A DNA stretch of 64,000 nucleotides from Eledone cirrhosa (taxonomy: Eukaryota): assembly GCA_964016885.1 (NCBI GenBank), contig OZ024743.1, forward strand, positions 4,030,001-4,094,000, given 5' to 3'. This document shows positions 26,693 through 64,000 of this stretch, in pieces. Every line of letters begins with the position of its first letter. The first letter of the stretch is position 1. The translations under genes and the position numbers were made by a program. The notes beneath the pieces are model-generated. The model saw only the letters and a program-made list of their open reading frames with translations. It made no database searches and was not told the DNA's origin.

Positions 26693-29600
26693 CTTTCTTT
26701 ATTAACCACGAGGGTTTACATAAAGTAGACATTAAGGACAGTACAGGACAAACAAGACGGTACAAATTGGCATTTCTGCGTGTAAAAAACAAAAACAGAG
26801 GATGTAACAAAAAAAAATAACAATGAAAAATTCCCCAATACGGGGGAGACTTCTGAGGGACATTCGTGGAGAAAGCCCATTAAAAAGCCACAGTGACCCT
26901 AACCACCAGGACAAGTGCCCTCTCCCAGTTTTCCACCTTTAATTTACAGACACATACTCAGAGTAAGCCCATTCACTCGGGCCATTCTTGATCTCTCACC
27001 CATCTTTCAGCAAAATGCTGGGAAGAGAGCACTTCCCTCTCTACCCTGATTTTCCTTTTCCACAAGTCAGCAATGCTCGGACACTGGACGAGTGCGTGCA
27101 GGACGGTTTCGTCGCCCTGCGCGCACCTCGGACATGCTCGGCTGACGGCACCTCCATGCCTGTAGAGTTTATCTCGAACTGGCAAAGCTCCTCGGTAGCA
27201 CTGCCAGGCCGGGGATTTATGGAAGTTGTCCATAGGCCCCGGCCCGAAAGTTCTTCCGAAGAGATTGGCTAGTTGATTTTCGTCGACGCCTAGAGTTTCT
27301 CCAAGTACGTCGTCGCTCTTCCCCTCCACTAATCCTCTATAGAACGCCAAGGTGGAGTTTCCACCTATCACATTGCCCGATTGGTCGAGGGCTGTGAGCG
27401 CCTGAAGACATTCCAGTCTCCAAGCGCTCCCTCTCGGTCTTCGCTTGACCCAGGACTGCAGCTTCGTCAAGGAGACGAGCTGGGGAAAGACGTGTCTAGC
27501 AAATGGAGACCACAGCTGATCACCGTCGAGGAAGAGGTGGAGATGTCGTAGCCTGAGCGCGTGTCTGCGCATCATCAGCCACGGCATGCCCAGCCCTCCA
27601 CGTAGCGGGTGTTGACAGCAGATGGAAGGCCTGACCATCGGAGCGCGTCCCTTCCGCAAAAAGCGAAAGAGCAAATGCTCCAGCGCAGTCAGGCGCGGAT
27701 TATGACAAGGTACGACGGTCAGGCGGTAGTAGATGACGGACGCCATGTACGCGTTAGCCACCTCCGCTCGATCTTTCAGGGATAGCTTCCTCTCCGCCCA
27801 TTTCTGGGTGAGAGAAGCCACCCTGCTCGTCACCTCGTCCCAGTTTTTGTCCGTCTGGAGGTCCGGACCGAACCAGACCCCGAGCAATTTAACCGGTCCG
27901 TCCGTCCAGCGTCCGACGACGCTGTTGGACGGCATGGACCAGCCTCTCCAGGTGCTGAGCTGGAGGCCCTCTGACTTTTCCTGGATGATCATTGCTCCTG
28001 TAATCGCTTCGTATTCTCTTAGTGTAGTGCCGATCGCCTCGATGTGTTTGGCGTTCGACACCACTACAGTGACATCGTCCGCATGTGCTGACACGGATCT
28101 TCCGCATCCTAGTTCACACGGGACCCCCCTTAACGTCTCCATTTTGTGCAGTAATGGCTTCAGAGTCAATACGTGCAAGAGGGACAAGAGGGGACATCCT
28201 TGGCGGACCGAGCGCATGATGCTGAACGGTTCCGAAAGGTGACCGTTCACTCTCACCACAGAGCAGATGTCGTTGTGCATGGCAGCGATCCAGCCTCTGA
28301 AGACGGGCCCAAAGCCAGCCGCCCTCATGACTGCCGCTAGGTAACGATGGTCGACCCTATCGAAAGCTTTCGACTGATCTTAATTGATCAAGGATCCACC
28401 CGTGCCAGGTTCCCTAGCTACTCTCTCTACGATGTATCGCATGAGGTGGAGGTTGTCGTGGATGGATCTGTTGCGAATGGCGCATGTCTGCGCCCCTCCC
28501 ACCAGACACCCAACGACAAGCGCCAACCTCTTTGCTAGCACCTTGGCCAAAATCTTGAACTCTGTGTTTAGCAGAGTTATGGGCCTGAAATTATCTATGG
28601 TATCCCCCTTGTTCAAATCCTTTCTCAGCAGCTCCACAGCGCCTCGGCTCACAGAGCTGGGAATTCTTCCGTTCTGTTGCCAGTTGCAGTAGACGTCCGC
28701 CAAGAGGCCTCCGAACAAGTCTGGCATCTGTACGTAAAGTTCATAAGGCAGACCATCCAAACCAGGCGATTTACCCCTTGTGCAGCCAGTCATTGCCTCC
28801 CGTACTTAAGCGGCTGTTATCGGCTTTTCGCAACACTCCGCCTCAGTGGCCGTGAGCCGCGGCAGTCCGTCGAGGTAGACACTAAAGTCCATCCCTCGAT
28901 TCGTCCCGCCGCTGCCCCCGAACAGCTGGGCGAAGTGTCACTGGAAAGCTGCACATATTTGCCCGGGATCGAGTAGCATGCGCTCGTCGTGGTCCACCAA
29001 AGACCGGATCCTGGCTTCGTTGCCACGACGCGCCTCCACCACTCGGGCCCATTGAACGGCTTTCGCCCCCTCGTGTCGTCTGAGAGCACGCACCCTAGCT
29101 CTGACAACGCAGCCTTCGTGCTTCGCATTGAAGAATTGGTCAAGGGCCAATTTCGCCGCAAGTACGTCGGTCGCGATGCCTTTGCTAAGTGCCTCGTCTA
29201 ATTTTCTAACTAGTTCTCCCTCTGCTTTATTTTTCTCTATTGCTAAAGCCTTACTAAATCTAATAGACTCTATTCTACTCGCTCTTTTCAGAGCAAACCA
29301 CCACTTGTTGTTGACGATGGCCCCCGTCAACACCCTCTTAACTAGTTCGCTAATCCGGTCTCTGTAAGCCTTGCGCGCTGGTAAGGACGCGTTTAGCTTC
29401 CAGTAGCCGGGTCCTCGTCTATGAAGCCTATTTAAGTCAAGCACACAGATCACGAGTTTGTGGTCCGTGTAGCTGAGTATCTTGAATTGTGGACAGCCTA
29501 TGCTAGACCTATCTATTTCCCTACAAAATACTCTATCTAGATATGATCTGGATGACCCAATGAGATTTGTCCAAGTCCACATTGGCACATTCGGGAAATC

Positions 29601-32313
29601 CAATCGGTACCTGTCAGACAGTTCAAAACGCCTGAGCAGGTTGGTGAGGCTCTTGTACCCTCCTCCCCTATCCGCTAATCCCACACAGTCCTAGCGTGCA
29701 TCTAAGATCCCGTTCCAGTCGCCCACTAACACTAAAGAGCGGGACGTTCCAAGAAAGGTCTCCAGACGCCGGAAGAAATCAGTCCGCCCTGCTCCTCTCG
29801 AGGCATAGACGGCCACTAAGCCTGAAAGCTTGCCGTCTCCGCTGGTCACGTCCAGCACCACCAACTTACCTTCTGGGTCCAGGAAGATGGACCGTATAGC
29901 GAGATCCAAACCTCTCCGAAAAAGCACAGCAACTCCTCCCCCGATCCAGGACGGCTGGGAGATACGTACACATCGTAACCGCCGAAGATCGGTGCGAAGG
30001 CCCGTGCTTCGGAGATTCTGGTCTCGCTGATGGCCACTACATCTATGTTTAGTGACCTGAGGTCGTTGGGCAGGTGGCCCTGCTTCCATGACGACCCCAA
30101 GCCACGCGCATTTATGCTGCCTATTCTGAGTGAGGTCACGTTGAAATGGAGTGGAAAAGATGGGAAAGACCACTTACCTTACTTCTCGTAGAGGAAGGAT
30201 GGTTTCTCCATCCTTTTCACTGCTTGTGGCCTCCTCCGGAAGGATGTCCTTATAAATCCTCCTGGAGAGTGTTTGTCGGAAGTCTGCGATGTCTTTGGGG
30301 AATTTTTGTTTTAGTGTCGTGTACGTTTTCTGTGTGATGCGAGTGATTTGTATGTGTGGAGGTGGTGTGAATTTTGGGTTGTTGTGTCGTCTTTTTCTGT
30401 GATGCTGGTGTTGTGTTGGATGTAGTGTAATAATTGGTTGTTGTTTAAATTTAATGCTGTGTAGTGTGTATCGTTTTCGTTGTTTTGTTTTGTTTGCGTT
30501 TGTTGTGGGTTTGTTTCTGTTTCGCTTTTTGGTGACTTTTGTGGTGTTAGTGATGGTGGTGTTGGGGTTAATGATGGTGATGGTGTTGGTGTTTGTGATG
30601 GTGGGGTTGGTGATGCTGGTGTGGATGGTGGCATATCTGTCCTAACTGTTTTGTTTGATAGTTTATTTGTTTCCCTCTGTATTTTGTTTTTGGATGGGGA
30701 GGGAAGAGAATTTTTTCTTTTTTGGTCTCTTTTTTTCTGATACCTTTTCCCACTCCTTGTCGTCCCAATCTGTCTCCAGTTGTGATAGGCCGGGGAGTGG
30801 AAAATGCTCCACAGGCGTTGGTTTTGGTTGTGGCGTGGTGGATGATGTAGGCGCTGGTGCTAGTTCTGGCGCGTTGGGTGGTAGTGGCGTTGGTTTTGCT
30901 ACTGTTTCTGGTGTTGTTGCTGTTACAGTTGCTTCTGTTGTTGCTGCTACAGTTGTTGCTGCCATCTCTGCTGCTGGTGGTGCTGATGGTTGAGTCACTG
31001 GGGTGGGTAAGAGAGATGGCCTCAACCTTTTAGCCTGAGGGCAGAAAGCCCTTAAGTGGGTTCCTTCACCACAAACGACACACCTAGGCCTTCTGCCCTC
31101 GACGATTACGGTGAGGTGGCTGCCGTCAGTGAGGTCTATTACCTCAGGGATCTCCTCAATGCTTTTTTGGTCCGCTTGGATCAGGAGCTCCATCCCAGAT
31201 CCGGACCAGTTCTCCTGCTTTTGTTTCGCTATTTCTATTATCTTGGTGTTGGCTTCGATGCCGGCGAGGACGGCAGCCATTAGCCAGGGAATTTCGATGG
31301 CCGGTGGAACGTGGGTCACCCTGGTCTTTACGAGTCTCTGTCCACAATAGCTTGGGACGGGTGTGAAGTCGTCACTTCTTAATGGGGCCATGGAGTGTTC
31401 TCTGGCCTCCTGTGGTGTTTCAAAGAACACGTCCACGGTTCCATATTTCTGCCCACGTCTGATGTGGGGTTATTTTTCCCACACATGTCCCAAAGCTTTT
31501 TGGATTTGGGACTCGGATGCCCGTTCCACTCGGCGCGATTTTATGCTAATCGTCCGATAAGACACGGTGGATCGGCGCCGATGCTCCATTTTATTAGGTG
31601 GAGTGGGGTGGGGGGTGGGGGTGAGGCTGACCCTGTATCCATCTTTCTTTACCATTTTTTTGGCTTCTTCTAATTCCTCCTGAGTTACCTGGAATGCTTC
31701 GCACTGTTTTGCTACTCTGGCAAAAATCAGGATGGTTTTCTTAATTTCATTGTTGCTGTTATCGTTATTTTTGTTATTGTTAATTTTAGTTTCAGTTGTG
31801 GTGGTGGTGGCGTCAGTGGTGTTCGGTGTGGAAGAGTTCATTTTGGTTGAATTCATTTCGATATCACGAGGTAATTTATTTTTTTCTTTTGTTTCTGTTG
31901 TCGCTGTGGTGGTGGTGGGGGTGGCGGCTTTAACACCTGCAGTCATTGGTAATGGCGGGAAATGAATGTCTGCCTGAGACAAATTTAAAATATTGCTACT
32001 GCTTATATTTTTAGTGTTGGCAAACGTAGTAATATTTACAATGGTGGTGTCGGTGTGAGGTGTTAGTTTGTGAGGAAGGTGTGACTCTGAGTCGTCCATG
32101 TTTTTCAAAGAAAAATCTTTGTTTGATAATTATAAAAGCTTAAAATTTTGGGCTCAAGGCCCCAATCTTTATGAGTGTCCTTTTCAGTAATCAATGTATG
32201 TGCACTTATATACAGTTAACAATAAAAATTTTCAATAAATGGTAATTTTAAACAACTGAAAATAACAAACATTTACGGAGCTCACGATAATACGATTTAC
32301 TACGTAGGTCGCC
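26693..32313 (-). mobile_element. Full-length decayed Tx1/L1-clade retrotransposon, family A (copy 1)
   Basis: ORF1 pieces 31470-32108 and 30663-31436 (CX2CX4HX4C), ORF1b (~30174-30720), and fragmented APE-RT ORF2 (~26950-30139). 5' end GGCGACCTACGTAG; 3' end AATAAAGAAA(TTA)n. Confidence 0.95.
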
Positions 32314-32335
32314 AATAATAATAATAATGATAATA

Positions 32336-35300
32336 ATTTCATTTATTGGCCACAAGGGCCGACATATAGGGGACAATACAAAAGACTGGGACAGTGGGGT
32401 TTTACAGAAAAATCGAGTAAACAATATGAATAACAATAACAAAGTAACAATAACAAAGTAACAATAAAGTAACAATAAAATTACAAAAAGAAAAAATTCC
32501 CCAATCGGGCGGATGACCACCGAGGGTTCGCTCAGGTACCCCACCAATCCTGAACGACCCGATGCTACAAGAGCACCCTGGAAGGGCACCCCCCTCTCCT
32601 CAAATTTACCTACCTACAGCCGCATGACCAGAGTAGGCCCACTCACACAGGCCATTCTCGCCACATTCACCCACCTTTCAGCAAATGTACGGGGGGGGGG
32701 GGGCATTTATCTCTCCACCCTCACCTTCCTTTCCAAGTGCAACTTGAAAAAGTTGATGAGGGATTGGCCGAAGAGAAAAGTGTCTGTCTTCAGTCCTTTT
32801 AACCTGGTCCACCATATCACCTCTTTCGCAACTGCCACCAGAGAGAGGAAAATTTCCTGCTCTTCCTGACCTAAGGAAGGCGGTGGATCGATCTCCATTA
32901 TGGACTCGGCCGATAGCCGGATTCGTTTCACACGCGACAGTAGCTGTTCGACATAACTCCACAATTCAGTAATGCACGGACATTGGACAAGTGCGTGCAG
33001 AACGGTTTCGTCATTCTGTGCGCATCTTGGGCAGGTCCGTCTGACAGCACTTCCGTGCCTGTAGAGTTTATCTAGAACCGACAGTGCCCCCCCCCCGGTA
33101 GCACTGCCAAGCGAGGGATTTTTGGAAATTATCCATCGTCCTCGGCTCGAAAGTCCTCCGGTACAGACTGATTAGTTCGACTTCGTTGACTCCCAGAGCC
33201 TCTCCGAGTGCGTCGTCGCACTTTGCCACCACTAATCCTCTATAGAACTCGAGAGTGGAAGTTCCACTGACTGCATTGCCCGCCTGGTAGAGGGCAGTGA
33301 GTGCCTGGCAACATTCCAGATGCCAGTCACCCAGTCTCGGTCTCTTCTTGACCCAGGACTGCAGCTCAGTCAAAGAAACGAGCTGCGGAAAGGCCCGTCT
33401 GACAAACGGCGACCACACCTGTTCACCGTTTAGGCAGAATATCTTGAGATGCCGCAGCCTCAGCGCGTGCCTTCGCATCATTAGCCACGGCATGCCCAGC
33501 CCTCCACGTAGAGGATGCTGGCAGCAGATGGACCGCCTCACCAGCGGAACCTGACCCCTCCACAAGAATTTGAAGAGGAGCCGCTCCAAGATGGCGAGGC
33601 GCGAACGGGGGCAAGGGACGACGGTCAGACGGTAGTAGATGACGGACGCGATGCATGCGTTCGCCACCTCCGCCGGACCTTTCAGTGATAGCTTCATCTC
33701 AGCCCATTTCTGGGTGAGACTGGCTACCCTGCCCGTCACCTCGTCCAAATTCTTATCCACCTGGAGGGCTGGCCCGAACCAAACCCCTAGCAACTTTACC
33801 GGTCCGTCCGTCCAGCGCCTAACGACGCTGTTGGACGGCATGGACTTGTCTCTCCAGGTGCCGAGTTGCAAGCCCACCGACTTTTCTGGGTTAAGTTTTG
33901 CTCTCGTCAACCTTTCATATTCCTCCAATAAGTTGCCGACCACCTCGATTTCTGAGGTGTCCGACACCATCACGGTGATGTCGTCCGCATAAGCCGACAC
34001 AGCCTTTCCGCGTCCCGGTTCGAGCGGGATGCCCTGCAACAACTCCAGCTTCCGCAGTAAAGGCTCGAGAGTCAATACGTACAGAAGGGACGAGAGAGGG
34101 CACCCTTGACGGACCGATCGGGAGACCTGAAACGGTTCCGAGAGGTGGCCAATAATTTTGACAATCGAGCAGGTGCCGCTGTGCATTGCAGCAATCCAGC
34201 TTCTGAAGACGGGGCCGAAGCCAGCCGCCATGAGGACAGCCTCCAGGTACCGATGGTCGACCCTATCGAATGCTTTCCATTGATCTAAATTGATCAGAGC
34301 CCCACCGAAGCCAGGTTTACACCGTACCCTCTCTATGATGTATCGCATTAGGTGGAGGTTGTCGTATATGGACCTGGTTGGGATTGCGCAAGTTTGCGCC
34401 TCCCCAACCAAATCCCCGACAACAAGCGCCAACCACTTCGCTAACACCCTGGTCAAAATCTTAAACTCTGTGTTGAGCAGAGTTATGGGCCTGAAATTGT
34501 CTAATGCGTCCCTCTTGTTCTCATCTTTCCTTATCAGCATCACTACGCCCCGGCTCACAGAACTGGGAATACTCCCGTTTTGCTCCCAGTTGCAGTAGAG
34601 GGCTTAGAGGAGATTGGAGAACAAGTCTTGCATATTTACGTAAAGTTCGTAGGGCAGACTATCCATACCGGGTGACTTGCGCCTTATGCAGCCGACAACG
34701 GCATCATGAATCTCGGCTGAAGTAATTGGCCTTTCGCAGCGCCCAGCGTCAGCCGTCGAGAAATGCGGCAAGCCATCGAGGTAGGGACTGAAATCCTCCA
34801 CCGTCTCTGACCCGCCACTTCCCCCGAACAACCGAGAAAAATGTTGGCGAAAGGCCTCACACATCCGCTTGGAATCGCTCAGCTCGTGTCCGTCTCGGTC
34901 CGTCAAAGACCGAATCGTGGTTTTATTACCACGCTACGTCTCTGCTACGCGGGCCCATCGAACAGCTTTGGTTCCCTCTTTCTCAGCGCACGCACCTTAG
35001 CTCTGACAATGCAACCTTCGTGTTTCGCATTGAAGAAATGTTCTAATGCCATTCTCGCCGCTAGCACGTCAGTTGCAATGCCACTACCAATAGCCTCGTC
35101 TAACTTATCTACCAACTCCCCCTCCTTTCTATTTTTCTCTAACGCTACTTCTTTGCTAAACTCTATCAACATTACTCTAATCTCTCTTTTGAGAGCCCCC
35201 CACCATCGACTCCCCCTGTCAACTTTTTCTTAACTAAATAGTTGACCTGGTCCCTGTAAGCCTTACGTGCCGGAAATGTTTAGCTTCTAGTAAGCCGGTC

Positions 35301-37882
35301 CTAACCTACGCGTTTTATCTAGGTCGACCATACAAATCACAAACTTGTGATCTGAATAGGCGACCGTTTCAAAACGTGGACAGCTTACACTATTTCTGTC
35401 TATTTTCTTAATGAATATCCTGTCTATATACGATCTAGATGACCCTATGCGGTTAGTCCATGTCCACACTGACGCATTAGGGAAATCTAGTCGGTACCTG
35501 TCAGACAGTTGGAACTGGTTGATCAGGTTCTTGAGGCTTTTGCACCTCCGCTCCTATCGGATACTCCCACACAGTCCCAGCGTGCGTCTAAGATGCCGTT
35601 CCAGTCCCCGCTAACAGTAAAGGGCGAGACGTACCCAGAAAGGTTTCCAGGCGTCTAAAGAAGTCCGGCCACCAGTCTAAAGGCACCACCTTCGTTATTG
35701 TTCACGTCTAGGACCACCAACTTCCCGTCCGGGTCCCGGAAGATCGACCTTACCTCGAGATCCAGGCCTTTCATAAACAGCACTGCCACTCCGCCTCCCA
35801 TTCCCGGCCGGCTAACAGATGCAAAGATCTGATAGTCGTCGAAAATGGGGGCTAGTGCGCGCGTGTCGGAAATCCTGGTCTCGCTGACGGCAATTACATC
35901 CATTTCTAGAGACTTGAGGTCGTTGAGCAGGTGACACTGCTTCCAGGACGATCCCAGGCCTCGAACATTTAAACTTCCTACTCTTAATACGGCCATGTTG
36001 GCACGTTAAAAAGAGAGAGAGAAAAGGTTTACTTACCTTCCGGGCTCTTGTGAAGGTCGGGTGGTTCGACCTCCATAGTTGGTGGGGTTTCTTTTGGGAA
36101 CCCCTTTAAAAGTCTTGAAGTGAGTTTTACGTTCGGGGTTCCCACGTCCAGAGGAAAGCTGCCTCGTATTTCTTTGTATAAATCGAGCGACATTCGCACC
36201 AGAAACAAATTTTCCGGCACGCGAAATGTGTTCGATTTAAAAAATTACCCCTCTTTTTGAATATTTTCACTTCGTGCAACGAGGGACATTAGTTCTTTGT
36301 TGGCCCTCCTGACGAGCACGAAGTTTTGTATGTTTTGTTGGTGTGATTTTATTTGTTTGCGTGGCTGTGGTGGTGATGGTTTTGGTGGTGTTGTTTCGGT
36401 TGTGTCTGTGTTTGTTGTGAGTGCGGTGTCTGTGGTTTCAGATGTTTGTGTGTATATTTGTTCTTGCGTCTGTTTAGGTTGTTTGCGTTTGGGGGATTCT
36501 GGTGATGGTGATAGTGGTGTTGATGTTGGTGTTATTGGAGAGATGTTTGCGTGGGTGGTGTCTGCGTTTTTTTATTGTAGGTGATTTTGTGCTTTGTTGA
36601 GTTTATTTTGCTTTTTGTGTTTCCTTTTTTGTATTTTGGGGGATTTGGGTTTTCCCTCATCTTCACTACTGGTAGATGTAAGTGTGTCTGTGTGTGTGTT
36701 TATGGTTTTATTGGTGTGTGTATTTTAGAGGGATGGGGGAATTTGACAGCTTTCCTCGTTTCCACCCTGGGTGGTCAATGTTGGTGGTGGTCTTTTATTG
36801 GTGTTGTTGTTAGTGGTTTTACCGGTGCTGGTGTTGGTTGTGGTCCTCGCCCCGGCGTCGGCAGCAGTGGAGCCTTTCGACCCCTTGTATCTTTCAGCAG
36901 TTGAGGGCAGAAGGCTCGAAAATGGGTTTTTTCTCCACAAACAAAACAATGCGGCCTTTTAGCCTTCGGTCATAATGTGAATGACCGTCCCATTCTGACG
37001 GCGGATGTGGTCCGGGATTGTCTTCACATTCTCGGGCCTGATCTGGAGCAGGATCTTCAGGTCAACCCCGGACCAGTCCTCTCTGGCCGTTCTGGTCACT
37101 TCTTTCGGGATGGTATCTGTCCCCTCCACAATGATACATCCCAGAAGCCACCACATGTCAAGGGATTCTGGGAGTGCCGAGTTAGGTTGGCCCAGGTTTG
37201 CTCTTGCTTGATGAGTTTCCATGCCTGGGTCAACTTTTCATCTTTGTTTGAGAGGTCCATGTTGTTCCATGTGTTCTTCTTGTTGTCGTTGGGGGTGTTG
37301 TTGTCATTGTCGTTGTTCTTGTTGTGTTGTTGTTATCACTGTCGCTGTTATCATTGTTGTCTCTGGTGCCACCGTTGTTCTCGGTGCAGTTGGTATTGTT
37401 GCTGTTGGTGTTGTCGCTGTTTGTTTTCATGTTAGTGGTGTTGATATTGTTGTTGCATTTGTCATTTTTTTTTGTTATCTGTATTTTCGTTGTCGCTGTT
37501 ACTGTCATTATTTTCAAAATTAGAGTTCTCATTGGTATCATTGGTGTCTTTGTTTACATTGTTTGTGGTGGTGTTTGTGTTATCAATCTCTGTTAATTTC
37601 GCCGTAGCGCTTCTCTCAACTTCTACGTCGTTGTCGCACGATAGCAGACATATCGCTGGGGGGCGTGGCTCAGCCATGTTTTTTTTTGTATTTTTTCTCG
37701 ATAATTTTGTAAAAAAGTTCAAATATTTGGGCCAAAAGGCGCAAATATTATTCTTTCCCTTTCACACGGCAAAGTCCAAGGGCTTGTATGACTTACACAA
37801 CAACAAACAATTCAATAAATCAGTTTTGATAGGCAAATAAGTGAACTTACGGGAGCGAGCAAAAAGACGTCCGTTCAGACTC
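32336..37882 (-). mobile_element. Near full-length decayed Tx1/L1-clade retrotransposon, family B
   Basis: APE start MAVLRVGSLNVRGL (35996), RT 33068-34558 (RQGCPLS, YADD), ORF1 fragments with CFVCGEKTHFRAFC. Bounded by (TAA)n on both sides. Confidence 0.95.
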
Positions 37883-37902
37883 AATAATAATAATAATAAT
37901 AA

Positions 37903-38265: not shown

Positions 38266-38719
38266 TATGTTGTTTTATCTCTAAACTCTCTCAAAATGTT
38301 TAGTTTAAACGATGTCAAATCTAAACTATAATATAATAATAATAATTGTTTCTGCTTTTGGCACGGGGCCAGCAATTGTCCTGGTGTGTTGCTGGTGCTT
38401 TGTTTTGTCGGCCCAGTAAGAATGAAAGGAAAAATAAAAATAATAATGATAAGCAAGTCGAAAAATTATAGAACAGAACACAGACAGAAGCAAACGCAAC
38501 AACAAACACACATTTCAAAAGTTTTGAACACAAGAACCCCTACTTCCCTTAGCACCAGCAGCAACAACAACACTAGTAACCGATGTTACTGGCCTTGAAA
38601 AACGAAAGACGCAAAGGAAAAAAACAAACAAACAAAAAAAACTAAGTCAGACATCCAACCATTACAATAAAACTTATGTTTATTTTTTAAAGTTTTTGTC
38701 TATTTATTTGTTTATTTAT

Positions 38720-52994: not shown

Positions 52995-53022
52995 TAATAA
53001 TAATAATAATAATAATAATAAT

Positions 53023-53063
<41 letters not shown>

Positions 53064-53072
53064 TAATAATAA

Positions 53073-53915: not shown

Positions 53916-54060
53916 TATTATTGTAATGCACTGGGTGATTGCTGGCCTTGTGCCTGGAGTGGAGACAATTATTAATAATTTCATTCTTAAGTCACGCAAT
54001 GCTCACATTAAGGAACCACTCATGATAATAACAATTTAAAAAAAAAACAACAAAAAGAAA

Positions 54061-57000
54061 ACCCCGTGACCAAGAAATACCGGGATGGCGGCCGGCGGGG
54101 AATAGCCGTGTCTCTAGGGGAGAACGACCCCTCTAGTCTTGGTTGACACTCGTTCTAGAAGTGGTAACACGAAATGATTACCCCTTGGCGGATAAGGATA
54201 AAACGCGACAAAATAAAGTAAATGTCTAATGATAAAATCTCATACCGGCTCGGCCGTCACCCGGGTAAAAAAGGGCCGCGTCCCTCAGAGAGGAGCCAGA
54301 CTGGGGTCGAAAAATCAGCTAATGGTTCAAACCTTCCCATCACTTCGGAGCTGGAGACCTCCTATAACCGGAATACTCCTACTGTTGGCCCTCCATGCTC
54401 ACCACCAAGAAATCCAAAGAAAAAGAGAGAAAAATGGTCAAGGGAAGATAATAAAGAAGTCCTTGAGGCTTTCTACACTGCCATGTACTACCCATCAAAT
54501 ACATCGAATACAGAACAGACATATATCAACTGGAAAAAGAAACATCCCGAAAACAGAGGCTATATTGACAGCAACAAACTAGCCAATATACGAAGAAATA
54601 TAGAAAGAGATATAGAAATTGATCAGATCAAGCTATTAGCACAAAGTCAGCGAAGGGAAAATGAAACATGTGTCAGTGAAAACGAGGTAAATTGCAACAC
54701 TTCGAATCCCAGGGTTGGGGCGGAATCACTGGCAACAGAACAAATTAAAGAAAGGATCGAAAAAGTGGAGGGAGTGCATGCTCAAGATGAAAATAATGAG
54801 ATCGTAAATGATAAAGAAATGAATGAGAATGAACTTGCCAACTTGAAGGATGAAATTATGATCGAATGGATGAAAATGAAAGAATCTGACATGGGGCAAC
54901 GAGACACCCTCCCTAAGATCCAGAACTCCAAACAGAACCAAAAGATAATACACAAGACTAACATAATTCTCAAAAACATTATCATCACAAACAAACTAAA
55001 CATTACTGATTTAAATCATCTCTATTATGCATCGGCTAAAGTCACCACTCACTTATGTGGAGTGAAGATGAAAAAACAAAGGAATTCCCACAAGAAATCT
55101 ACTTGGCAAGAGAACATCAATCACCAAATAAACCTTCTCCGATCTGACATAGAAATTTTAACAAACTATAAAGTAGGTGAACATGTTAAAAAAACTAAAC
55201 TTAGAAAATTGAAAAAAAAGTACAGTATAAAATCAACAAGTGACATAGACATGCTGATAGAAATAATCAAACAAAAAGTGTCGGCCAAAGCTGCTCGTAT
55301 AAGGCGCTTTGAAAAACGATCTAGATTCTATAAGGACAATAATATGTTCAAAAACAACCAAAGAAACTTCTACAGAAAAATTGGTAAGTCAACAATAACT
55401 GCTAAATCAATACCACCCAAGGAGGAAGTGCAAGAATTCTGGGAAAAGATCTGGGCCGAAGAAAAAGTTCATAACATACATGCCCCATGGATAGACAGAC
55501 AAATGAAAGATACAGCTCACCTTGAGGAACAAATATGGGAAAATATAACAGTTAAACAGTTGCGCTTGGCTCTAAGAAAAACCAGCAAATGGAAATCCCC
55601 AGGAAAAGACATAATACAAAACTTTTGGATAAATGCCTTCACAGAGTCTCATGAGCTGTTAGCCCAACTTTACAATGAAATAGTTAAGGAGCCAGAAAAG
55701 ATACCATCATGGCTAGTTAACGGCATTACATTCCTGCTTCCGAAGAATGATGAGACAAACAATCCCAAAAATTACAGACCGATAACTTGCTTGACCACAA
55801 TGTATAACATTTTAACATCAGTCCTAACTGAATACACATATGACCACCTGACAACAAATGACCTATTTCCCATTGAGCAGAAAGGGTGTAAACGAGGCTC
55901 ATAGGCTGTAAGGATCAGCTTCTGGTTAACAAAATGATACTGGAAGATTGTCATAATAGACACAAAAATCTATCGATTGCTTGGATAGATTATAAAAAAG
56001 CATTCGATAGTTTGCCACACAGTTGGATTGAAAAATGTTTAGAGATTTTCAAAATATCCCCCGTTGTCAGGAGGTTTTTGTCATTCAGTATGAAGACATG
56101 GAAAACGACACTCCTTTTGAATAGTGAAACAAAATCACTGGAAGCTGGAGAAGTTAATATTAATTGTGGAATTTTTCAGGGTGACTCTTTATCACCGCTT
56201 TTATTCTGCATCGCACTTATACCATTAAGTAAAATGCTCAATGAAACAAAACATGGATATAAAGTCTATGACAAAACCATTAATCACTTGTTCTACATGG
56301 ATGACCTGAAACTATTTGCAAAAAATGATGAACAATTGCAAGGGCTATTATCCACTGTGGAGCAGTTCAGTGATGACATTAAAATGGAGTTTGGACTAGA
56401 CAAATGCGCCAAAGCAACGTTCACCAGAGGAAAGCTGCTGAAGAGTTCAGACATTAATCTTGATCGGGGGAACGTGATAAGAGAACTTGATCAAGAAAAA
56501 ACTTACAAATATCTAGGTGTTTGTGAAGGAGACGGAATCAAGCACTCGACAATGAGGGAAAGGATAAGGAAGGAATGTTACCGCAGAGTAAGAGCAATCT
56601 TAAGAACGGAATTGAATGCAAGGAAGAGGATCGATGCCATAAACACGCTTGCCATACCAGTAGTAACCTACAGTTACAATGTCATCAACTGGTCAAGCAG
56701 AGAGATCCATAGGCTCGATACAAAAATTCGGAAACTCTTAACCATGCACAGAATGCATCACCCTAAGGCAGATATTGATACATTATATCTCCCTAGCAAA
56801 GAAGGAGGACGTGGGTTAATCCAGTTAGACATTGCGTTGAAAACTGCAACAATTGGATTATCTACATATCTAAGGGAATCACATGATTGGATGATCAAAC
56901 TCGTTTTGAAACACAAAAGCATCAAAAGATCATATTCCATTACAAAAGATGCACAAAGATACAGTAATGGACTACAAATTTCAGAAGTCCCATTTACTGC

Positions 57001-57989
57001 TGAAATGGAAAACACAGAAAAAGCAAAGCAGGTAAAAGTAACTGCAAAGAAAGAACTGCTACAGAAACTGGCTAAGAAATGGCAAGAAAAGCCTCTGTAT
57101 GGAAAATACCCAGAGCGAGCTAACAATCCTGATGTTGACAAAACTTTAACCCATCAGTGGTTGGCATCCTCTGGACTGAAATGGGAGACTGAAGGACTGA
57201 TTATATCAGCACAAGATCAGTGTCTGCCAACAAAAAATTACCAAGCCAACATAATAAAAAATGGATGCAGCCCATTATGCCGTTTTATGCAAAAAACAAC
57301 CAGAGACCATTGACCATATAATTTCAATGTGCAGTCCTATAGCTCCAACCGAATACCTAAACAGGCATGACAGAGCTGCACAATACATACATTGGATAAT
57401 GTGTAAGCATTTTAACCTGTCCCATCAAAAGAATTGGTGGGAACATCAACCACCTCCCATACTTGAAAAAGATCACATCTCAATCTTGTGGAACTTTAGC
57501 ATCCAAACAGACCGAAAAATAGATGCAAATAGACCTGATATAATATTGAAGGACTTTAAAAAGAGGGTATGCCTGCTAATTGATATGCCCGTTCCAATAG
57601 ACAAGAATGTATCTATAAAAACATTTGAAGAATTGAGCAAGTATAAGGACCTGGAGATAGAAATTGGAAAAATGTGGAAATTGAGAACTAAAACAATACC
57701 AGTGGTTGTAGGCGCTCTGGGAATGATACCTAAGGGGTCTAATGACTACTTATCGCAAATCCCAGGAAACCCGCGTATAGGAGAAATACAAAAGATAGTA
57801 GTAATGGGAACTGCCCATATACTAAGGAAGATTCTGTCAATATAAGTACATTACAAGTCTAAACACTAAAGATGCATGTGTGAGTATGTATGTTCTTTCT
57901 TGAACATGGCGGACGTTGTTGTCTCTTGAGGTCACTGGTTGTGTCTTGGTGATAACTCGTATGAACATAAAGCAAGATAAATGCAACTG
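54061..57989 (+). mobile_element. Full-length R4/Dong-like RLE retrotransposon (family A)
   Basis: GC-rich 5' leader, single long ORF, short 3'UTR and (TAA)n tail. The 5' boundary is inferred from the end of an A-tract. Confidence 0.9.
54222..57845 (+). pseudogene. RT plus CCHC plus restriction-like endonuclease polyprotein with one nonsense codon (55902) and one frameshift (~57285)
   Basis: KWSREDN, KWKSPGKD, NYRPITC, DYKKAFDS, GIFQGDSLSPLLF, LFYMDDLKL, GGRGL, RHD, NRPDII...LID...KLSKYKDL-type motifs. Confidence 0.92.
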
Positions 57990-58011
57990 TAATGATAATA
58001 ATAATAATAAT

Positions 58012-61000
58012 GAATTCATTTATTAGCCACAAGGGCCGACATGTAGGGGACAATACAAAGACAGGGACAGTGGGGGTTTACAATAAGGTCGAGTAAAAGT
58101 GCACAATGGCAAGACTAATTTAACAATGAAAATATAAAAATATGAAATAAACTATGCATAAATATAACAAAATAAATTCCGATAGGTGGTGGACAACCCT
58201 GGGGTGACTCGGGTACCTCACGAATCCTGAACCACCCTGCGCTTCTAGGGCACACAGGGAGAGCACCCCTCTCTTCAAGTTAGCTAGCCTATAGGCGCAT
58301 GGTCAGAGTAGGCCCATTCACACGAGCCATTCTCGCCACATTCACCCACCTTTTAGCAAATGTACTGGGGGGGGGGGGGGCAGCACTTCTCTCTCCACCC
58401 TCACCTTTCTTTCCAGGTGAAACTTGAAGAAGTTGATGAGGGATTGGCCGAAGAGAAGAGTGTCTCTCTTCAGTCCTTTTAACCTGGTGTACCATATAAC
58501 CTCTTTCGCAACTGCCACCAGACAGAGGAAAATTTCCTGCTCTTCCTGACCTAAGGAAGGTGGCGGCTCGATCTTCACTATGGACTCGGCCGATAGCCGG
58601 ATTCGTTCCACACGCGACAGTAGCTGTTCGACATAACTCCACAAGTCAGTAATGCACGGACATTGGACAAGTGCGTGCAGAACGGTTTCGTCGTTCTGTG
58701 CGCATCTTGGGCAGGTCCGACTGACAGCACTTCCGTACCTGTAGAGTTTATCCCGAACCGGCAGTGCCCCCCGGTAGCACTGCCAAGCGAGGGATTTCTG
58801 GAAATTATCCAGCTTCTCCGAGTGCGTCGTCGCACTTGCCCACCACTAATCCTCTATAGAACTCGGGAGTGGAAGTTCCACTGATCGCATTGCCCGCTTG
58901 GTAGAGGGCTGTGAGTGCCTGGTAACATTCCAGCTGCCAGTCACCCAGTCTCGGTCTCTTCTTGACCCAGGACTGCAGCTCAGTCAAAGAAATGAGCTGC
59001 GGAAAGGCCCGTCTGATAAACGGCGACCACGCCTGTTCACCGTTGATGCAGAATATCTGGAGATGTCGCAGCCTCAACGCATGTCTGCGCATCATTAGCC
59101 ATGCCATGCCCAGCCCTCCGCGTAGAGGGTGCTGGCAGCAGATGGACCGCCTCACCAACGGAACTTGTCCTCTCCACAAGAATTTGAAGAGGAGCCGTTC
59201 CAACTTGACGAGGCGCGGACGGGGGCAAGGCACGACGGTCAGGCGGTAGTAGATGACGGACGCGATGCACGCATTCGCCACCTTCGCGCGACCTTTCAGT
59301 GATAGCTTCCTCCCAGCTCATTTTTGGGTGAGACTGGCTACTCTGCTCGTTACCTCGTCCCAATTCTTATCCACCTGGAGGTCTGGTCCGAACCAAACCC
59401 CTCGCAACTTTACCGGTCCGTCCGTCCAGCGCCCCACGACGCTGTTGGACGGCATGGGCTTGCCTCTCCAGGTTCCGAGCTGCAAGCCCACCGACTTTTC
59501 CGGGTTAAGTATGGCTCCTGTCAACCTTTCATATTCCTTCAATAAGGTGCCGACCACCTCGATTTCTGAGGTGTTCGACACCATACGGTGATGTCGTCCG
59601 CATAAACCGACACCGCCTTTCCACGTCCCGGTTAGAGCGGGATGCCCTGCAACAGCTCCAACTTCCGCAGTAAAGGCTCGAGAGTCAATACGTACAGAAG
59701 GGAAGAGAGAGGGCCCCCTTGACGGCCCGATCGGGAGAGCCGAATTGGTTCCGAGAGGTGGCCATTAACTTTGACCACCGAGCGTGTGCCGCTGTGCATT
59801 ACAACGATCCAGCTTCTGAAGACAGGGCCGAAGCCAGCTGCTTTGAGGACAAACTCCAGATACCGATGGTCGACCCTATCGAATGCTTCCGATTGATCTA
59901 AATTGATCAGTGCCCCACCGAATCCAGGTTTACACCCTACCCTCTCTATGATGTATCGCATGAGGTGGCGATTGTAGTGTATGGACCTGGGTGGGATTGC
60001 GGGGGAGGGGGGCGGGTAGTGGGAGAGCTTTGCTCGTTTTCCCCTTGGATTGGTTTTGGTGTTGGTGGTGATCCGGCTGTTTTTGATGTTGGTGTCCGTG
60101 TTTTTGTTGATGTTGTTTTTGGTGGTGGTGGTGGTGGTGGTGCAGCTTTCCGTGCTGACACTGGCGTTGGCAACAAAGGAAGTTTGCGACCCCCTGAATT
60201 TTTGCGCTGAAGGCAGAAGGCTTGCAGATGCGTTGCTTCCCCGCAGACGAAGCAGCGTGGCCTTCTTCCGTCAATGATTAGTTGGATTGTTGTCCCGTCA
60301 TGCAGGCGGGCAAAATCCGGGATGTTGTTCATGTCCTCCGGTTTCATTTGGAGAAGAATCTCCAAATCCATTCCGGACCAGTCCTCTCCCTCTGTCCTTT
60401 TGATATCCAGGAGGGTAGTGTCTGTCCCCTCCTCGATTACGCATCAGAGCAGCCACCATATGTTCATTCCTGGAGGGATGCTGGGAATGCGGACCTTTAC
60501 TGTCCTTTTACCCATGTAGGACGGATGCATGATAATGCGTTCCGTTCTGCAGGGGGTCACCGAGTGCTTAATAGTGAGGGCCTCGGTTTTGAGCAGTACC
60601 GAGATGGTACCGAACTGTTTGCCTCTTTCTTCATACTCTATGTTACTTCCGATACACTCCAAAGCAGCCTCGACCTCTGCTTGGCTGGCAAGTTCCACTT
60701 TTCGTGTCTGCACCTAAATGCATCGAAAGAACACCGTCCTCCTTTGCATGGCCGCTATTGCCTCGTCCGGGATGGTCAGGTTTGCCCAGGACTTCTCTCG
60801 CTTAATTATCCTCCACGCTTTGGCCAACTGTTCGTCTTTATCGCTAATATCAATATCAATATTCAATAAGCGCTTTGTTTTTGCTGCTGCTGCAGCAAAT
60901 GTCGTGTTTCTGATGCTCTTATTGTTGGTGTTGTCATTCTTGCTGTTGTTATTGGTGTTGTTGTTGTTGTTTTGTTTGTTGATGCTGTTGCCACCACCAT

Positions 61001-61493
61001 CCGTGTTTACATTGAAGCTGTCGGTGTTATTGTCGTTATTGCTCTGAGTTGTTGTTGTGGTGGTGGTGGTGGTGATGTCGTTTTCAGATGATACTGCTGC
61101 TATCCCAGAAGGATGTGAAGGTAGCTTTTTAGATTTGCCTTCACATTCAGTAGAGTGGATGACAGGCATGACTGTAGCCGTCGTAGTCGTGGTGAAATCT
61201 ACAGTGGCTGCCTTTAAACTTTTGACCTGAACGTTGTTTACCGTTTCAAGGTCGAACATTTTCATAATTTTTTTTTTTTGGTGGGGAAGCGATTTTTTTC
61301 GAAATTTTAAAAAATAAATCTGAATATTCGGGCTTAAAGCCCGAATATTGAGAGGTATCCCTCTCTTTAAATCAAGATGTGTGCCTTAAGTTTCGTTAAC
61401 GACAAGAAAATACAAAAAATGACACTTTAAAACAGCTTAAAGTTACAAACCTTTTCCCCCGCAGATTTGTACTGTCTTCACACATGTGCGGCC
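58012..61493 (-). mobile_element. Internally deleted Tx1 element: family D 5'UTR/ORF1 fused at ~60001 to the 3' half of a family B-like ORF2
   Basis: ORF1 pieces 60714-61265, 60444-60713 and 59946-60371 (CFVCGEATHLQAFC). 58289-60001 resembles 32610-34388. Bounded by (TAA)n. Confidence 0.9.
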
Positions 61494-61543
<50 letters not shown>

Positions 61544-61545
<2 letters not shown>

Positions 61546-64000
61546 TTTCTTTATTAACCACAAGGGTTTACATAAAGTAGACATTAAGGACAGTGCAGGA
61601 CAATGCAGGACGGTACAAATGGGCATTTCTGCGTGTAAAAAAAACAAAAATAGAGGATGTAACAAAAATAACAATGAAAATAACAATGAAAAATTCCCCA
61701 ATAGGGGGGAGACTTCGGAGGAACATTTGTGGAGAAAGCCCAGTAAAAAGCCACAATGACCCTGACCACCAAGGCAAGTGCCCTCTCCCAGTTTTCCACC
61801 TTTAGTTTACAGATATATACTCAGAGTCGGCCCATTCACTCGGGCCATTCTTGCTTCTCTCACCCATCTTTCAACAAAATGCTGGGAAGAGAGCACTTCC
61901 TTCTCTACTCTGATTTTCCTTTTCAAATGAAATTTGAAAAAGTCAATCAGAGCATCACCGAAGAGGTAAGTGCTCGTCTTCAGCCCTTTCAAACGTGTCC
62001 ACCATACTATCTCTTTCGCCATGGCCACCAGACAGATAAAAACTGCCTGCCCTTCCCGGCTAAAGGAGGAGGGCGGGGCAATCCTCACGATAGACTCAGA
62101 TGATAGCTGGATCCGTCCTAAACGCGACAGCAGGTGTTCGACATAAACCCACAAGTCAGCAATTTTCGGACACTGGACGAGTGCGTGCAGGACGGTTTCG
62201 TCGCCCTGCGCGCATCTCGGACATGCCCGGCTGACGGCACCTCCATGCCTGTAGAGTTTATCCCGAACTGGCAAGGCTCCTCGGTAGCACTGCCAGGCCA
62301 GAGATTTCTGGAAGTTGTCCATAGGCCCTGGCCCGAAGGTTCTTCCGAAGAGATTGGCTAGTTGATTTTCGTCGACGCCTAGAGTTTCCCCAAGTACGTC
62401 GTCGCTCTTCCCCTCCACTAATCCTCTATAGAACGCCGAGGTGGAGTTTCCACCGATCACATTGCCCGATTGGTCGAGGGCTGTGAGCGCCTGAAGACAT
62501 TCCAGTCTCCAGGCGCTCCCTCTCGGTCTTCGCTTGACCCAGGACTGCAGCTCCGTCAAGGAAACGAGCTGGGGAAAAACGCGTCTAGCAAACGGCGACC
62601 ACACCTGATCACCGTCGAGGAAGAGGTGGAGATGTCGTAGCCTGAGCGCGTGCCTGCGCATCATCAGCCACGGCATGCCCAGCCCTCCACGTAGCGGGTG
62701 TTGACAACAGATGGACCTCCTGACCATCGGAGCACGTCCCTTCCACAAAAAGCGAAAGAGCAAACGCTCCAGCGCAGTCAGGCGAGGCTTAGGACAAGGT
62801 ACGACGGTTAGGCGGTAGCAGATGACAGACGCGATGTACGCGTTAGCCACCTCCGCTCGACCTTTCAGGGATAGCTTCCTCTCCGCCCATTTCTGGGTGA
62901 GAGAAGCCACCCTGCTCGTCACCTCGTCCCAGTTTTTGTCCGTCTGGAGGTCCGGACCGAACCAGACCCCTAGCAATTTAACCGGTCCGTCCGTCCAGCG
63001 CCCGACGACGCTGTTGGACGGCATGGACCTGCCTCTCCAGGTGCCGAGCTGCAGGCCCACTGACTTTTCCTGGTTGATCATTGCTCCTGTCACCGCTTCG
63101 TATTCTCTTAGTGTAGTGCCGATCGCCTCGATGTGTTTGGCGTTCGACACCACTACGGTGACATCGTCCGCATATGCTGACACGGATCTTCCGCATCCTA
63201 GTTCGCGCGGGACTCCCCTCAACGTCTCCAGTTTGTGCAGTAATGGCTCGAGAGTCAATACGTACAAGAGGGACGAGAGGGGACATCCTTGGCGGACCGA
63301 GCGCATGATGTTGAACGGTTCCGACAGGTGACCGTTCACTCTCACCACAGAGCAGATGTCGCTGTGCATGGCAGCGATCCAGCCTCTGAAGACGGGCCCA
63401 AAGCCAGCCGCCCTCAGGACTGCCGCTAGGTAACGATGGTCGACCCTATCGAAAGCTTTCGACTGATCTAAATTGATCAAGGACCCACCCGTGCCAGGTT
63501 CCCTAGCTACCCTCTCTACGATGTATCGCATGAGGTGGAGGTTGTCGTGGATGGATCTGTCGGGAATGGCGCATGTCTGCGCCTCTCCCACCAGACCACC
63601 AACGACAAGCGCCAACCTCTTTGCTAGCACCTTGGCCAAAATCTTAAACTCTGTGTTTAGCAGAGTTATGGGCCGGAAATTGTCTATGTTATCCCCCTTG
63701 TTCGGATCCTTTCTCAGCAGTGCCACCGCTCCTCGGCTCACAGAACTGGGAATTCTCCCGTTCTGTTGCCAGTTGCAGTAGACGTCCGCCAAGAGGCCTC
63801 CGAACAAGTCTGGCATCTGTACGTAAAGTTCATAGGGCAGACCATCCAAACCAGGCGATTTACCCCTTGTGCAGCCAGTCATTGCCTCCCTTACTTCAGC
63901 GGCTGTTATCGGCTTTTCGCAACACTTCGCCTCAGTGGCCGAGAGCCGCGGCAGTCCGTCGAGGTAGACACTAAAGTCCATCCCTCTACCCGGCCCCCCG
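61544..64000 (-). mobile_element. Tx1/L1-clade retrotransposon, family A (copy 3), continuing beyond the window
   Basis: 3'UTR and ORF2 are near-identical to copy 2; (TAA)n at 61494-61543. Confidence 0.97.
61807..64000 (-). CDS. ORF2 (RT plus CCHC part, uninterrupted; 5' part lies outside the window)
   Basis: 724+ aa open frame with all RT motifs and an intact C-terminus. Confidence 0.92.
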   Translation of the reverse strand, partial: GGPGRGMDFSVYLDGLPRLSATEAKCCEKPITAAEVREAMTGCTRGKSPGLDGLPYELYVQMPDLFGGLLADVYCNWQQNGRIPSSVSRGAVALLRKDPNKGDNIDNFRPITLLNTEFKILAKVLAKRLALVVGGLVGEAQTCAIPDRSIHDNLHLMRYIVERVAREPGTGGSLINLDQSKAFDRVDHRYLAAVLRAAGFGPVFRGWIAAMHSDICSVVRVNGHLSEPFNIMRSVRQGCPLSSLLYVLTLEPLLHKLETLRGVPRELGCGRSVSAYADDVTVVVSNAKHIEAIGTTLREYEAVTGAMINQEKSVGLQLGTWRGRSMPSNSVVGRWTDGPVKLLGVWFGPDLQTDKNWDEVTSRVASLTQKWAERKLSLKGRAEVANAYIASVICYRLTVVPCPKPRLTALERLLFRFLWKGRAPMVRRSICCQHPLRGGLGMPWLMMRRHALRLRHLHLFLDGDQVWSPFARRVFPQLVSLTELQSWVKRRPRGSAWRLECLQALTALDQSGNVIGGNSTSAFYRGLVEGKSDDVLGETLGVDENQLANLFGRTFGPGPMDNFQKSLAWQCYRGALPVRDKLYRHGGAVSRACPRCAQGDETVLHALVQCPKIADLWVYVEHLLSRLGRIQLSSESIVRIAPPSSFSREGQAVFICLVAMAKEIVWWTRLKGLKTSTYLFGDALIDFFKFHLKRKIRVEKEVLSSQHFVERWVREARMARVNGPTLSIYL

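What the first reader, a model, noticed from the sequence alone, without database searches (positions are those of the whole stretch)
26693..64000. >37 kb strand-polarised retrotransposon array built on (TAA)n by two unrelated endonuclease systems
Seen: ten element copies from at least six families lie nearly end to end. Almost every junction is (TAA)n on the + strand (32314, 37883, 42295, 44865, 50763, 51956, 52995, 57990, 61494). All APE-type Tx1 copies are on -, all RLE-type Dong copies are on +, and none interrupts the body of another. Known: Dong (R4 clade) targets TAA repeats, and some Tx1-clade elements (Kibi, Koshi) target other microsatellites. Inference: several Tx1 families converged on the Dong target but nick the opposite strand. 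Each insertion leaves (TAA)n on both sides, so the locus grows as a self-renewing safe harbour.
Basis: partly seen in the sequence, partly recalled or inferred. Interest (0 to 1): 0.8.

Follow-up and report, generated by a model that had tools for sequence, protein, structure and literature searches.

The report
Retrotransposon chain sharing TAA landing sites
Ten jumping-gene copies of two unrelated kinds lie in a 37-kb chain joined by short TAA repeats with each kind on its own strand, likely because their own repeat tails keep creating landing sites that each kind can enter only one way round, and the two long copies of one kind are preceded by what looks like the front end of the other kind.

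Summary
Confirmed: ten LINE copies and 9 of 9 listed junctions are (TAA)n on +. Six APE (Tx1-like) copies lie on -, four RLE (Dong-like) on +. Runs of (TAA)>=4: 11 in the array, 0 in 26.6 kb of flank. Corrections: (1) the Tx1-like families are one lineage (shared 5' UTR and 3' hairpin), so this is one convergence, not several; (2) their ATT tail also stands outside microsatellites, so tail-primer pairing alone could set the polarity, and strand-specific nicking is unproven; (3) a SINE with the same 3' hairpin is the true left end; (4) both long Dong-like copies are preceded by a ~1 kb leader that begins with a Tx1-type 5' UTR on +, against the strand rule. Leader b is multi-copy in public runs, so it is either a captured promoter-leader or a separate element. 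Known precedents: Dong (TAA), SART/TRAS (one repeat, opposite strands), Keno/Utopia (APE and RLE on one site), double-insertion tandems. This scan noted the same arrays at four other loci of this genome; I found no note on the leader. No genome or named references were held, so genome-wide flanks and clade placement are untested. New variant of a known kind.

The parts
26399..26622 (-). SINE with the Tx1-type 3' hairpin, in an (AGT)n/(ATT)n tract; true left end of the array
26623..26692 (+). (CTA)n tract ending in (AAT)3: SINE 5' flank and E1 tail
26693..32315 (-). E1, Tx1-like family A, full length, several stops, one 0.2-kb deletion near the 3' end
32314..32337 (+). (TAA)n junction, E1 5' end to E2 tail
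32338..37884 (-). E2, Tx1-like family B, full length, decayed; 74-77% DNA identity to family A in ORF2
37883..37902 (+). (TAA)6 head-to-head junction; neither neighbour's tail
37903..38845 (+). leader a: Tx1-type 5' UTR (37903-38062, 5'-shortened), hairpin and TATA-like block, SINE 3' piece (38333-38449, -) between short TAA runs
38846..42294 (+). E3, Dong-like family 1 ORF (RT, RLE; decayed) and 3' UTR
42294..42334 (+). (TAA)13 tail-to-tail junction
42335..44866 (-). E4, chimera: family C 5' UTR and ORF1 joined to the last ~135 bp of a family A copy; ORF2 missing
44865..44894 (+). (TAA)n junction, E4 5' end to E5 tail
44895..50764 (-). E5, Tx1-like family A, nearly intact: ORF1 with CCHC knuckle, ORF2 APE-RT-zf (1105-aa open frame), 3' hairpin, ATT tail
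50763..50820 (+). (TAA)18 head-to-head junction; neither neighbour's tail
50819..51955 (+). E6, 5'-truncated Dong-like family 2 (RLE and 3' UTR)
51956..51985 (+). (TAA)10 junction, E6 tail to E7 5' end
51986..52994 (+). E7, 5'-truncated Dong-like family 2 with a ~150-bp internal deletion
52994..53072 (+). (TAA)~26 junction, E7 tail to leader b
53073..54221 (+). leader b: Tx1-type 5' UTR (53073-53300), hairpin and TATA-like block, SINE 3' piece (53923-53980, +); multi-copy in public runs
54222..57989 (+). E8, Dong-like family 2 ORF (two frameshifts) and 3' UTR
57990..58011 (+). (TAA)n tail-to-tail junction
58011..61494 (-). E9, Tx1-like B-type 3' part (85-91% to E2) joined to a divergent ORF1 and 5' UTR; APE and early RT missing
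61494..61543 (+). (TAA)16 junction, E9 5' end to E10 tail
61543..64000 (-). E10, Tx1-like family A, 730-aa open frame, runs off the window

Best explanation
Ten copies of two unrelated LINE types sit in one chain joined by same-strand TAA tracts, and the chain likely grew by repeated independent insertions in which each element's own repeat tail, likely pairing with the cut target, fixed its orientation and renewed the landing site. Shown: the anatomy, the strand rule, TAA at every 5' end in the array, ATT tails on Tx1-like and SINE copies outside microsatellites, and 11-13 bp target duplications at SINEs. From established target-primed reverse transcription: an ATT-tailed RNA must be primed from a nick in the TAA strand and a TAA-tailed RNA from a nick in the TTA strand, so the productive first nicks lie on opposite strands. 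Inferred: one Tx1-like lineage (APE, likely cutting at a TpA step, AAT/AAT) and its SINE passenger prefer short ATT-type sites; Dong-like elements (RLE) use TAA repeats as known; tail plus duplication leave (TAA)n on the same strand on both sides, so polarity propagates. Also inferred, more weakly (about 60% given the homology): the ~1 kb leaders are part of the Dong-like elements and derive from a captured Tx1 5' end.
For: 9 of 9 listed junctions are TAA on +; 11 runs of (TAA)>=4 in the array, 0 in the flank. All 9 element 5' ends inside the array (E1, E2, E4, E5, E9; E6, E7, leaders a and b) abut TAA, and 2 junctions (37883, 50763) are head-to-head, so the repeat there is no tail. Copies differ by 2-26%, and E6 and E7 have different truncation points, which fits separate insertions (same reasoning as PMC5932611, passages). 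The Tx1-like copy at 5610-7223 and dispersed SINEs keep ATT-type tails outside microsatellites. 4 of 4 dispersed near-full-length SINEs given to the search have 11-13 bp duplications with one mismatch (6 of 11 listed SINE pieces were given). The CTTGT-loop hairpin covaries across Tx1-A, Tx1-B and SINE: 96% of cells paired, 3 of 4 pairs changed on both sides, above 500 shuffles and all 6 slid controls. Leader b and Bombyx Dong start in the same phase, TAA|G (primer in PMC3774820). A second spot (4453-7223) again has the two types on opposite strands.
Against: No genome was held, so flanks and orientation were not counted genome-wide. 7 of 9 junctions could be a neighbour's tail alone. Two Tx1-homologous 5' UTRs and one SINE piece lie on + inside the array; if the leaders are separate elements the strand rule has exceptions and the E3 and E8 5' ends are not on clean TAA. 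The joint at 5598-5610 has no TAA, and a third Dong-like end at 7954-8355 shows no TAA tail. The left end uses (AGT)n, so the Tx1/SINE target is looser than (ATT)n. The hairpin covariation rests on three lineages, and the duplication search had no shuffle control. Contigs were cut at the TAA tracts, so no junction was bridged independently.
Confidence: 0.72

Rival explanations
1. Polarity is set by the enzymes: the APE nicks only the TAA strand and the RLE only the TTA strand of long microsatellites, and the tails are a by-product.
For: TRAS1 and SART1 endonucleases determine strand and site in one repeat (PMC7265360, passages). 5' junction phases are regular: ATT|G in E1, E5, E2, E4.
Against: SINEs that likely use the Tx1-like enzyme land at short ATT-type sites outside microsatellites; both strands of the repeat offer a TpA step; tails stand where there is no repeat. 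Not exclusive of the best explanation.
Confidence: 0.35
2. The leaders are a separate, multi-copy, non-autonomous element derived from a Tx1 5' end that sits on + (perhaps TAA-tailed and moved by the Dong-like enzyme); the Dong-like copies merely landed behind it.
For: Leaders a and b are 70-82% alike in blocks while the two Dong-like ORFs have no blastn match and share 35-53% amino acids. Short TAA runs flank the SINE piece in leader a. Run X7 holds abundant Dong-2 3' DNA but next to no leader b.
Against: 2 of 2 long Dong-like copies have one, and no free copy lies elsewhere in the window. In run X4 depth rises from leader (about 20-85, partly simple repeats) to the Dong-2 3' contig (68), and one 1505-nt contig at depth 31 matches 53736-53990 and runs on for 1250 nt without breaking.
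Confidence: 0.33
3. The chain grew mainly by local duplication or unequal exchange between TAA tracts, not by fresh insertions.
For: E6 and E7 begin only 33 nt apart on E8 and are 96-98% alike to it; E4 and E9 are fusions or deletions.
Against: Neighbouring copies belong to different families; no multi-element unit is repeated; E7 reaches further 5' than E6 while only E7 has the internal deletion; family A copies differ by 5-10%.
Confidence: 0.12
4. Assembly artefact: repeat copies mis-joined at TAA tracts.
For: No laid contig bridged a junction tract.
Against: No two copies are identical (best 98.5% over 135 bp, 97.9% over 1.1 kb); mis-joins would not sort class by strand nor give head-to-head joints; collapse removes copies and does not add them.
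Confidence: 0.04

Closest known systems
Dong (Bombyx mori, DongAg, DongBg), R4 clade
   Same: RT plus C-terminal CCHC and RLE; TAA repeat at both ends (PMC3812793, passages); same TAA|G 5' phase in leader b (PMC3774820, passages).
   Different: Bombyx Dong has an HDV-like ribozyme at its exact 5' end (PMC3774820); none was found here, and a Tx1-type 5' UTR stands in front instead. Here it shares the repeat with an APE lineage.
Kibi, Koshi and crocodilian Tx1 families
   Same: Two-ORF APE elements that prefer microsatellites: (TC)n, (TTC)n, (TTCC)n/(TTTC)n (PMC4494074, passages).
   Different: Target here is ATT/AGT-type; an ATT tail and a covarying 3' hairpin shared with a SINE; clade placement not tested with named references.
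SART and TRAS in (TTAGG)n
   Same: Two families in one simple repeat in opposite directions (PMC7265360, passages).
   Different: Both are R1-clade APE elements at telomeres; here one APE and one RLE type at an interstitial repeat that the elements renew themselves.
Keno (Tx1, APE) and Utopia (RLE) in U2 snRNA genes
   Same: An APE and an RLE lineage reached the same target in parallel (PMC4640811, passages).
   Different: A gene target with identical 3' flanks, so same orientation; no mixed self-growing array described in the passages read.
Tandem TEs by double insertion (R1 arrays, jockey dimers)
   Same: Repeated insertion at a preferred site with the target kept in the junction (PMC5932611, passages).
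   Different: Those are same-family tandems; here at least six families of two classes and a SINE alternate with a strand rule.
Stringent SINE-LINE pairs with a 3' stem-loop and repeat tail (UnaL2 type)
   Same: Shared 3' stem-loop with compensatory changes and a non-poly(A) repeat tail (PMC3747384, passages).
   Different: Here the LINE partner is L1/Tx1-like in an animal; partnership inferred from sequence only.

Membership tests
Tx1 clade | ORF2 with APE, RT and C-terminal zinc-binding domain | tested here: met
   Pfam PF03372, PF00078, PF13966 on E5; APE catalytic residues present (motif positions recalled); nearest solved protein L1 ORF2p, E 4e-53, against R2 2e-21.
Tx1 clade | ORF1 with RNA-binding domain and CCHC knuckle (feature recalled) | tested here: met
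   CX2CX4HX4C in 3 of 3 ORF1s examined (E1, E5, E9); atlas neighbours are CCHC/ZCCHC3-RBD/RRM clusters, score 0.88-0.93, a lead only; no Pfam hit.
Tx1 clade | RT phylogeny groups with Tx1L, Keno, Kibi, Koshi | not testable with these tools
   No named reference among the hits; the tree of 25 rows only separates APE from RLE types.
Tx1 clade (target-specific members) | More than 20% of genomic flanks carry one target type (criterion in PMC4494074) | tested here: inconclusive
   5 of 5 intact 5' ends in the window abut the repeat, but all lie in one array; no genome held.
Dong / R4 clade | Single ORF, RT followed by CCHC and PD-(D/E)xK endonuclease, no APE | tested here: met
   YMDD/FMDD, CCHC, RHD and RPD..D..K..KY in family 2; similar motif read in family 1; a 61%-identical relative hits only R2 proteins in the PDB. 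E8 and E3 carry frameshifts.
Dong / R4 clade | TAA repeats at both junctions | tested here: inconclusive
   3' ends 4 of 4 in the array; 5' ends 2 of 2 truncated copies, and 2 of 2 long copies only if the leaders belong to them. The flank copy at 4453-5598 and the old end at 7954-8355 have none.
Dong / R4 clade | HDV-like ribozyme at the exact 5' end (shown for Bombyx Dong) | tested here: inconclusive
   No ribozyme family among 38 Rfam matches at E<=1; my descriptor found none in 10 end regions but had no positive control and left out a short part of leader b.
Dong / R4 clade | RT phylogeny groups with named Dong and R4 | not testable with these tools
   Relatives at 40-67% identity are unnamed or labelled uncharacterised.
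SART/TRAS-type paired targeting | Endonuclease domain alone sets site and strand | not testable with these tools
   Needs nicking or domain-swap assays.

The most novel reading that the evidence does not exclude
Dong-like RLE elements in this genome have given up the clade's ribozyme and host-transcription strategy and captured the 5' UTR (internal promoter) of their unrelated Tx1-like neighbours, probably by a reverse-transcriptase template jump, and the leader has since passed between two distant Dong families. The TAA arrays would then be a three-partner community (Tx1-like LINE, its SINE, Dong) that shares a target, a 3' signal and a promoter module.
Probability: 0.3. Interest if true: 0.72.

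Novelty: new variant of a known kind. Interest (0 to 1): 0.5.

Why it matters
It gives a clean natural pair for asking whether insertion polarity in a simple repeat is set by the endonuclease or by tail-target pairing, with a nearly intact APE copy (E5) and RLE copy (E8) side by side. It shows how repeat-tailed elements can build their own large insertion sites in repeat-rich animal genomes; Dong-R4 and L1-Tx1 are among the recently active LINEs of Octopus vulgaris (PMC13282606, Table 1). If the leader is a captured promoter, it answers how an R4-clade element is transcribed from a microsatellite that has no host promoter. Each basic ingredient has a published precedent, which limits the surprise.

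Tried and rejected
Whole-genome flank count: no genome held. Public runs: 20 of 24 rows hold part of the stretch, no RNA holder listed, so expression and splicing were not examined. Loose ends at element termini: contigs were cut at the TAA tracts and gave no flank data; run X8 had too little cover to use. Metagenome relatives of the Tx1-like ORF2: 80 loci at about 23-51% best-segment identity; none shows an (ATT)n or (TAA)n run of 4 units or the CTTGT hairpin; too distant and mostly cut, so no conclusion. Ribozyme searches negative. Leader ORF1 remnant: no significant protein match to window ORF1s (best E 0.01 in a 12-sequence search), only a similar base skew. The reverse profile (leaders against Tx1 UTRs) is weak: E 0.13 and 2.9. 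RLE domain alone had no PDB hit. E4 as a spliced product: rejected, its joint lies about 45 nt past the donor-like site and has no AG. Assembly duplication: rejected on divergence. Look-ups of the leaders among earlier notes found nothing. Host identity (octopus-like) comes from earlier AI notes and was not tested. No structure or complex prediction was run.


Full report
Observation. The array is real. Self-comparison, ORF lists and translated searches resolve ten LINE copies between 26693 and the window end: six APE-type on - (E1, E2, E4, E5, E9, E10) and four RLE-type on + (E3, E6, E7, E8). All 9 of 9 listed junctions are TAA-phase tracts of 20-79 nt on +. Runs of (TAA)>=4 number 11 in the array and 0 in the 26.6-kb flank; (TTA)>=4 occurs in neither. 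The array starts a little further left than stated: a SINE on - (26399-26622) sits in an (AGT)n/(ATT)n tract and is separated from E1 by (CTA)n.

The two machines. E5 ORF2 has APE, RT and zf-RVT domains and is closest to L1 ORF2p among solved proteins; ORF1 has a CCHC knuckle in 3 of 3 copies examined and atlas neighbours of the CCHC/RRM type (a lead). The + copies have RT, CCHC, RHD and an RLE motif; a 61%-identical relative matches only R2 proteins in the PDB. A 25-row RT tree splits the two types 100/100. No named Tx1, Kibi, Koshi or Dong sequence was among the hits, so the labels Tx1-like and Dong-like rest on architecture and target, not on a tree.

One Tx1-like lineage. Families A, B and the E9 type are 74-95% alike in ORF2 DNA. 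The 5' UTRs of E5, E2 and E9 are homologous (z 5.5-10.4 against dinucleotide shuffles); E4's is only weakly so (z 0.4-2.2). All share a 3' hairpin with a CTTGT loop. The SINE ends in the same hairpin; across 13 ends 96% of cells pair, 3 of 4 pairs change on both sides, above 500 shuffles and all six slid controls. This is three lineages, not thirteen events. An earlier scan note (e1-9580941) pointed to this hairpin. So the convergence on the Dong target likely happened once.

Which junctions are informative. Seven of nine junctions contain at least one tail. Two are head-to-head (37883, 50763), where the repeat is neither neighbour's tail, and all nine 5' ends inside the array abut TAA. Outside the array a Tx1-A piece (5610-7223, +) and dispersed SINEs keep ATT-type tails at non-repeat sites, so the tail likely comes with the RNA. 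Four of four dispersed near-full-length SINEs examined have 11-13 bp duplications with one mismatch (6 of the 11 listed SINE pieces were given, no shuffle control), about four TAA units, which fits the shortest junction tracts. These sites are short ATT-type words and not microsatellites, so the Tx1-type preference is looser than (ATT)n.

Mechanism. Under target-primed reverse transcription (established), an ATT-tailed RNA in this repeat can only be primed from the TAA strand and a TAA-tailed RNA only from the TTA strand. Opposite productive nicks therefore follow from the orientation, but this does not show that either enzyme is strand-specific; tail pairing alone would sort them. Copies differ by 2-26%, neighbours belong to different families, and E6 and E7 have distinct 5' ends, which favours separate insertions over local duplication or an assembly fault. 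No contig bridged a junction, so long-read proof is missing.

The leaders. The ORFs of E3 and E8 start at 38846 and 54222, 0.9-1.1 kb after the TAA tract. These stretches are colinear homologues (70-82% in blocks, z 13), although the two Dong-like ORFs share only 35-53% amino acids and no blastn match. A profile of the five Tx1-like 5' UTRs finds leader a on + at E 2e-7 and leader b at E 0.055; it finds nothing under E 0.4 in 393 kb of unrelated loci. Leader a aligns to the E5 UTR up to and including the ORF1 start context and scores 85 against a maximum of 55.5 in 1322 flank windows; the summed score over four UTRs is the top one for both leaders (0 of 1322 and 0 of 1320 windows reach it), though single comparisons with E2, E9 and E4 are reached by 2-368 windows. 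The reverse profile is weak and no ORF1 protein remnant is significant. In public runs leader b is covered at depths of the same order as the Tx1-A 5' end in X1 and X4, lower than the Dong-2 3' end, and nearly absent in X7; a 1505-nt X4 contig carries the leader's SINE piece and runs on 1250 nt towards the ORF, letters that I did not see (depth is no copy number). One X1 contig lacks the SINE piece. I put 60% on the leader being part of the Dong-like element, given the homology, and about a third on a separate element. Bombyx Dong has an HDV-like ribozyme at its exact 5' end (PMC3774820); none was found here (no positive control).

Against the reading. The flank holds a Dong-1 piece and a Tx1-A piece joined head-to-head without TAA (4453-7223) and an older Dong-like end with no tail (7954-8355). 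One SINE piece lies on + inside leader b. No genome was held. Distant metagenome relatives show no such tails, 0 of 80. 'Safe harbour' was not tested.

Known systems. All papers were seen as search listings and matched passages, none whole, no supplements. Dong targets TAA; Kibi and Koshi target (TC)n and (TTC)n (PMC3812793; PMC4494074). SART and TRAS enter one repeat in opposite directions (PMC7265360). Keno (APE) and Utopia (RLE) reached the same U2 site in parallel (PMC4640811). Double insertion at preferred sites makes tandems (PMC5932611). Stem-loop SINE-LINE pairs with repeat tails are known (PMC3747384). Dong-R4 and L1-Tx1 are abundant or recently active in coleoids; the passages read give no targets (PMC13282606; PMC8967140). 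Searches listed no paper on an ATT-targeting Tx1 lineage, on mixed Tx1/Dong arrays or on a Tx1-derived Dong leader; Kojima and Fujiwara 2004 was seen only as cited, Repbase entries are outside the library, and the repeat library of PMC13282606 may hold these families.

Earlier scan notes. Four other loci of this genome were reported with the same pattern (e1-9522035, e1-9561528, e1-9592150, e1-9513955). They are unchecked leads, not support. Look-ups for the leader found no note.

Verdict. A real, ordered, multi-family insertion chain; a new variant of known repeat targeting. The Tx1-type leader in front of Dong is the part most worth following. Interest 0.5.

Noticed in passing
window 30180, 36039, 42521, 48597 (- strand); acceptor-like site near 44980: A perfect splice-donor-like word followed by a pyrimidine tract ends ORF1 in E1, E2, E4 and E5 (three families); family A has a strong acceptor-like site in its 3' UTR that would remove all of ORF2 (about 3.6 kb). 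The same word occurs twice more inside family A ORF2. No RNA data.
   Followed up: partly
window 42335-44866: E4 joins the 5' UTR and ORF1 of family C to a 3' end 98.5% identical to E10; the joint lies just after the expected ORF2 start. Template switch, deletion between tandem copies, or a non-autonomous family.
   Followed up: partly
window 50819 and 51986: E6 and E7 are truncated only 33 nt apart on the E8 sequence, and E6 has a short duplication at its 5' end: possible reverse-transcription stop or a truncated subfamily.
   Followed up: partly
window 38100-38235 and 53650-53775: Both leaders keep a strong hairpin and an identical 16-nt TATA-like word; no other copy of this block in the window.
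   Followed up: partly
window 4453-7223: Dong-1 piece (-) and Tx1-A piece (+) joined head-to-head through a 12-bp tandem duplication with no TAA; may be a deleted remnant of a mirror-oriented array.
   Followed up: partly
window 7678-8355: Older, third Dong-like RLE end on + with no visible TAA tail.
   Followed up: no
window 25419-25688: Two SINE copies tail-to-tail sharing one A+T tail, forming a long inverted repeat (gave a spurious Rfam miRNA match).
   Followed up: no
window 16566-16808; 14985-15207; 19283-19930 with 22460-23091: 33-bp minisatellite (6.9 copies), a tandem SINE 3' duplication (114 bp), and a 650-bp inverted pair at 90% identity in the flank.
   Followed up: no
window 37700-37745, 44700-44745, 50580-50625, 61310-61355: Each Tx1-like 5' UTR has a hairpin about 140-175 nt from the 5' end, with different stems: possible conserved RNA or promoter structure.
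   Followed up: no
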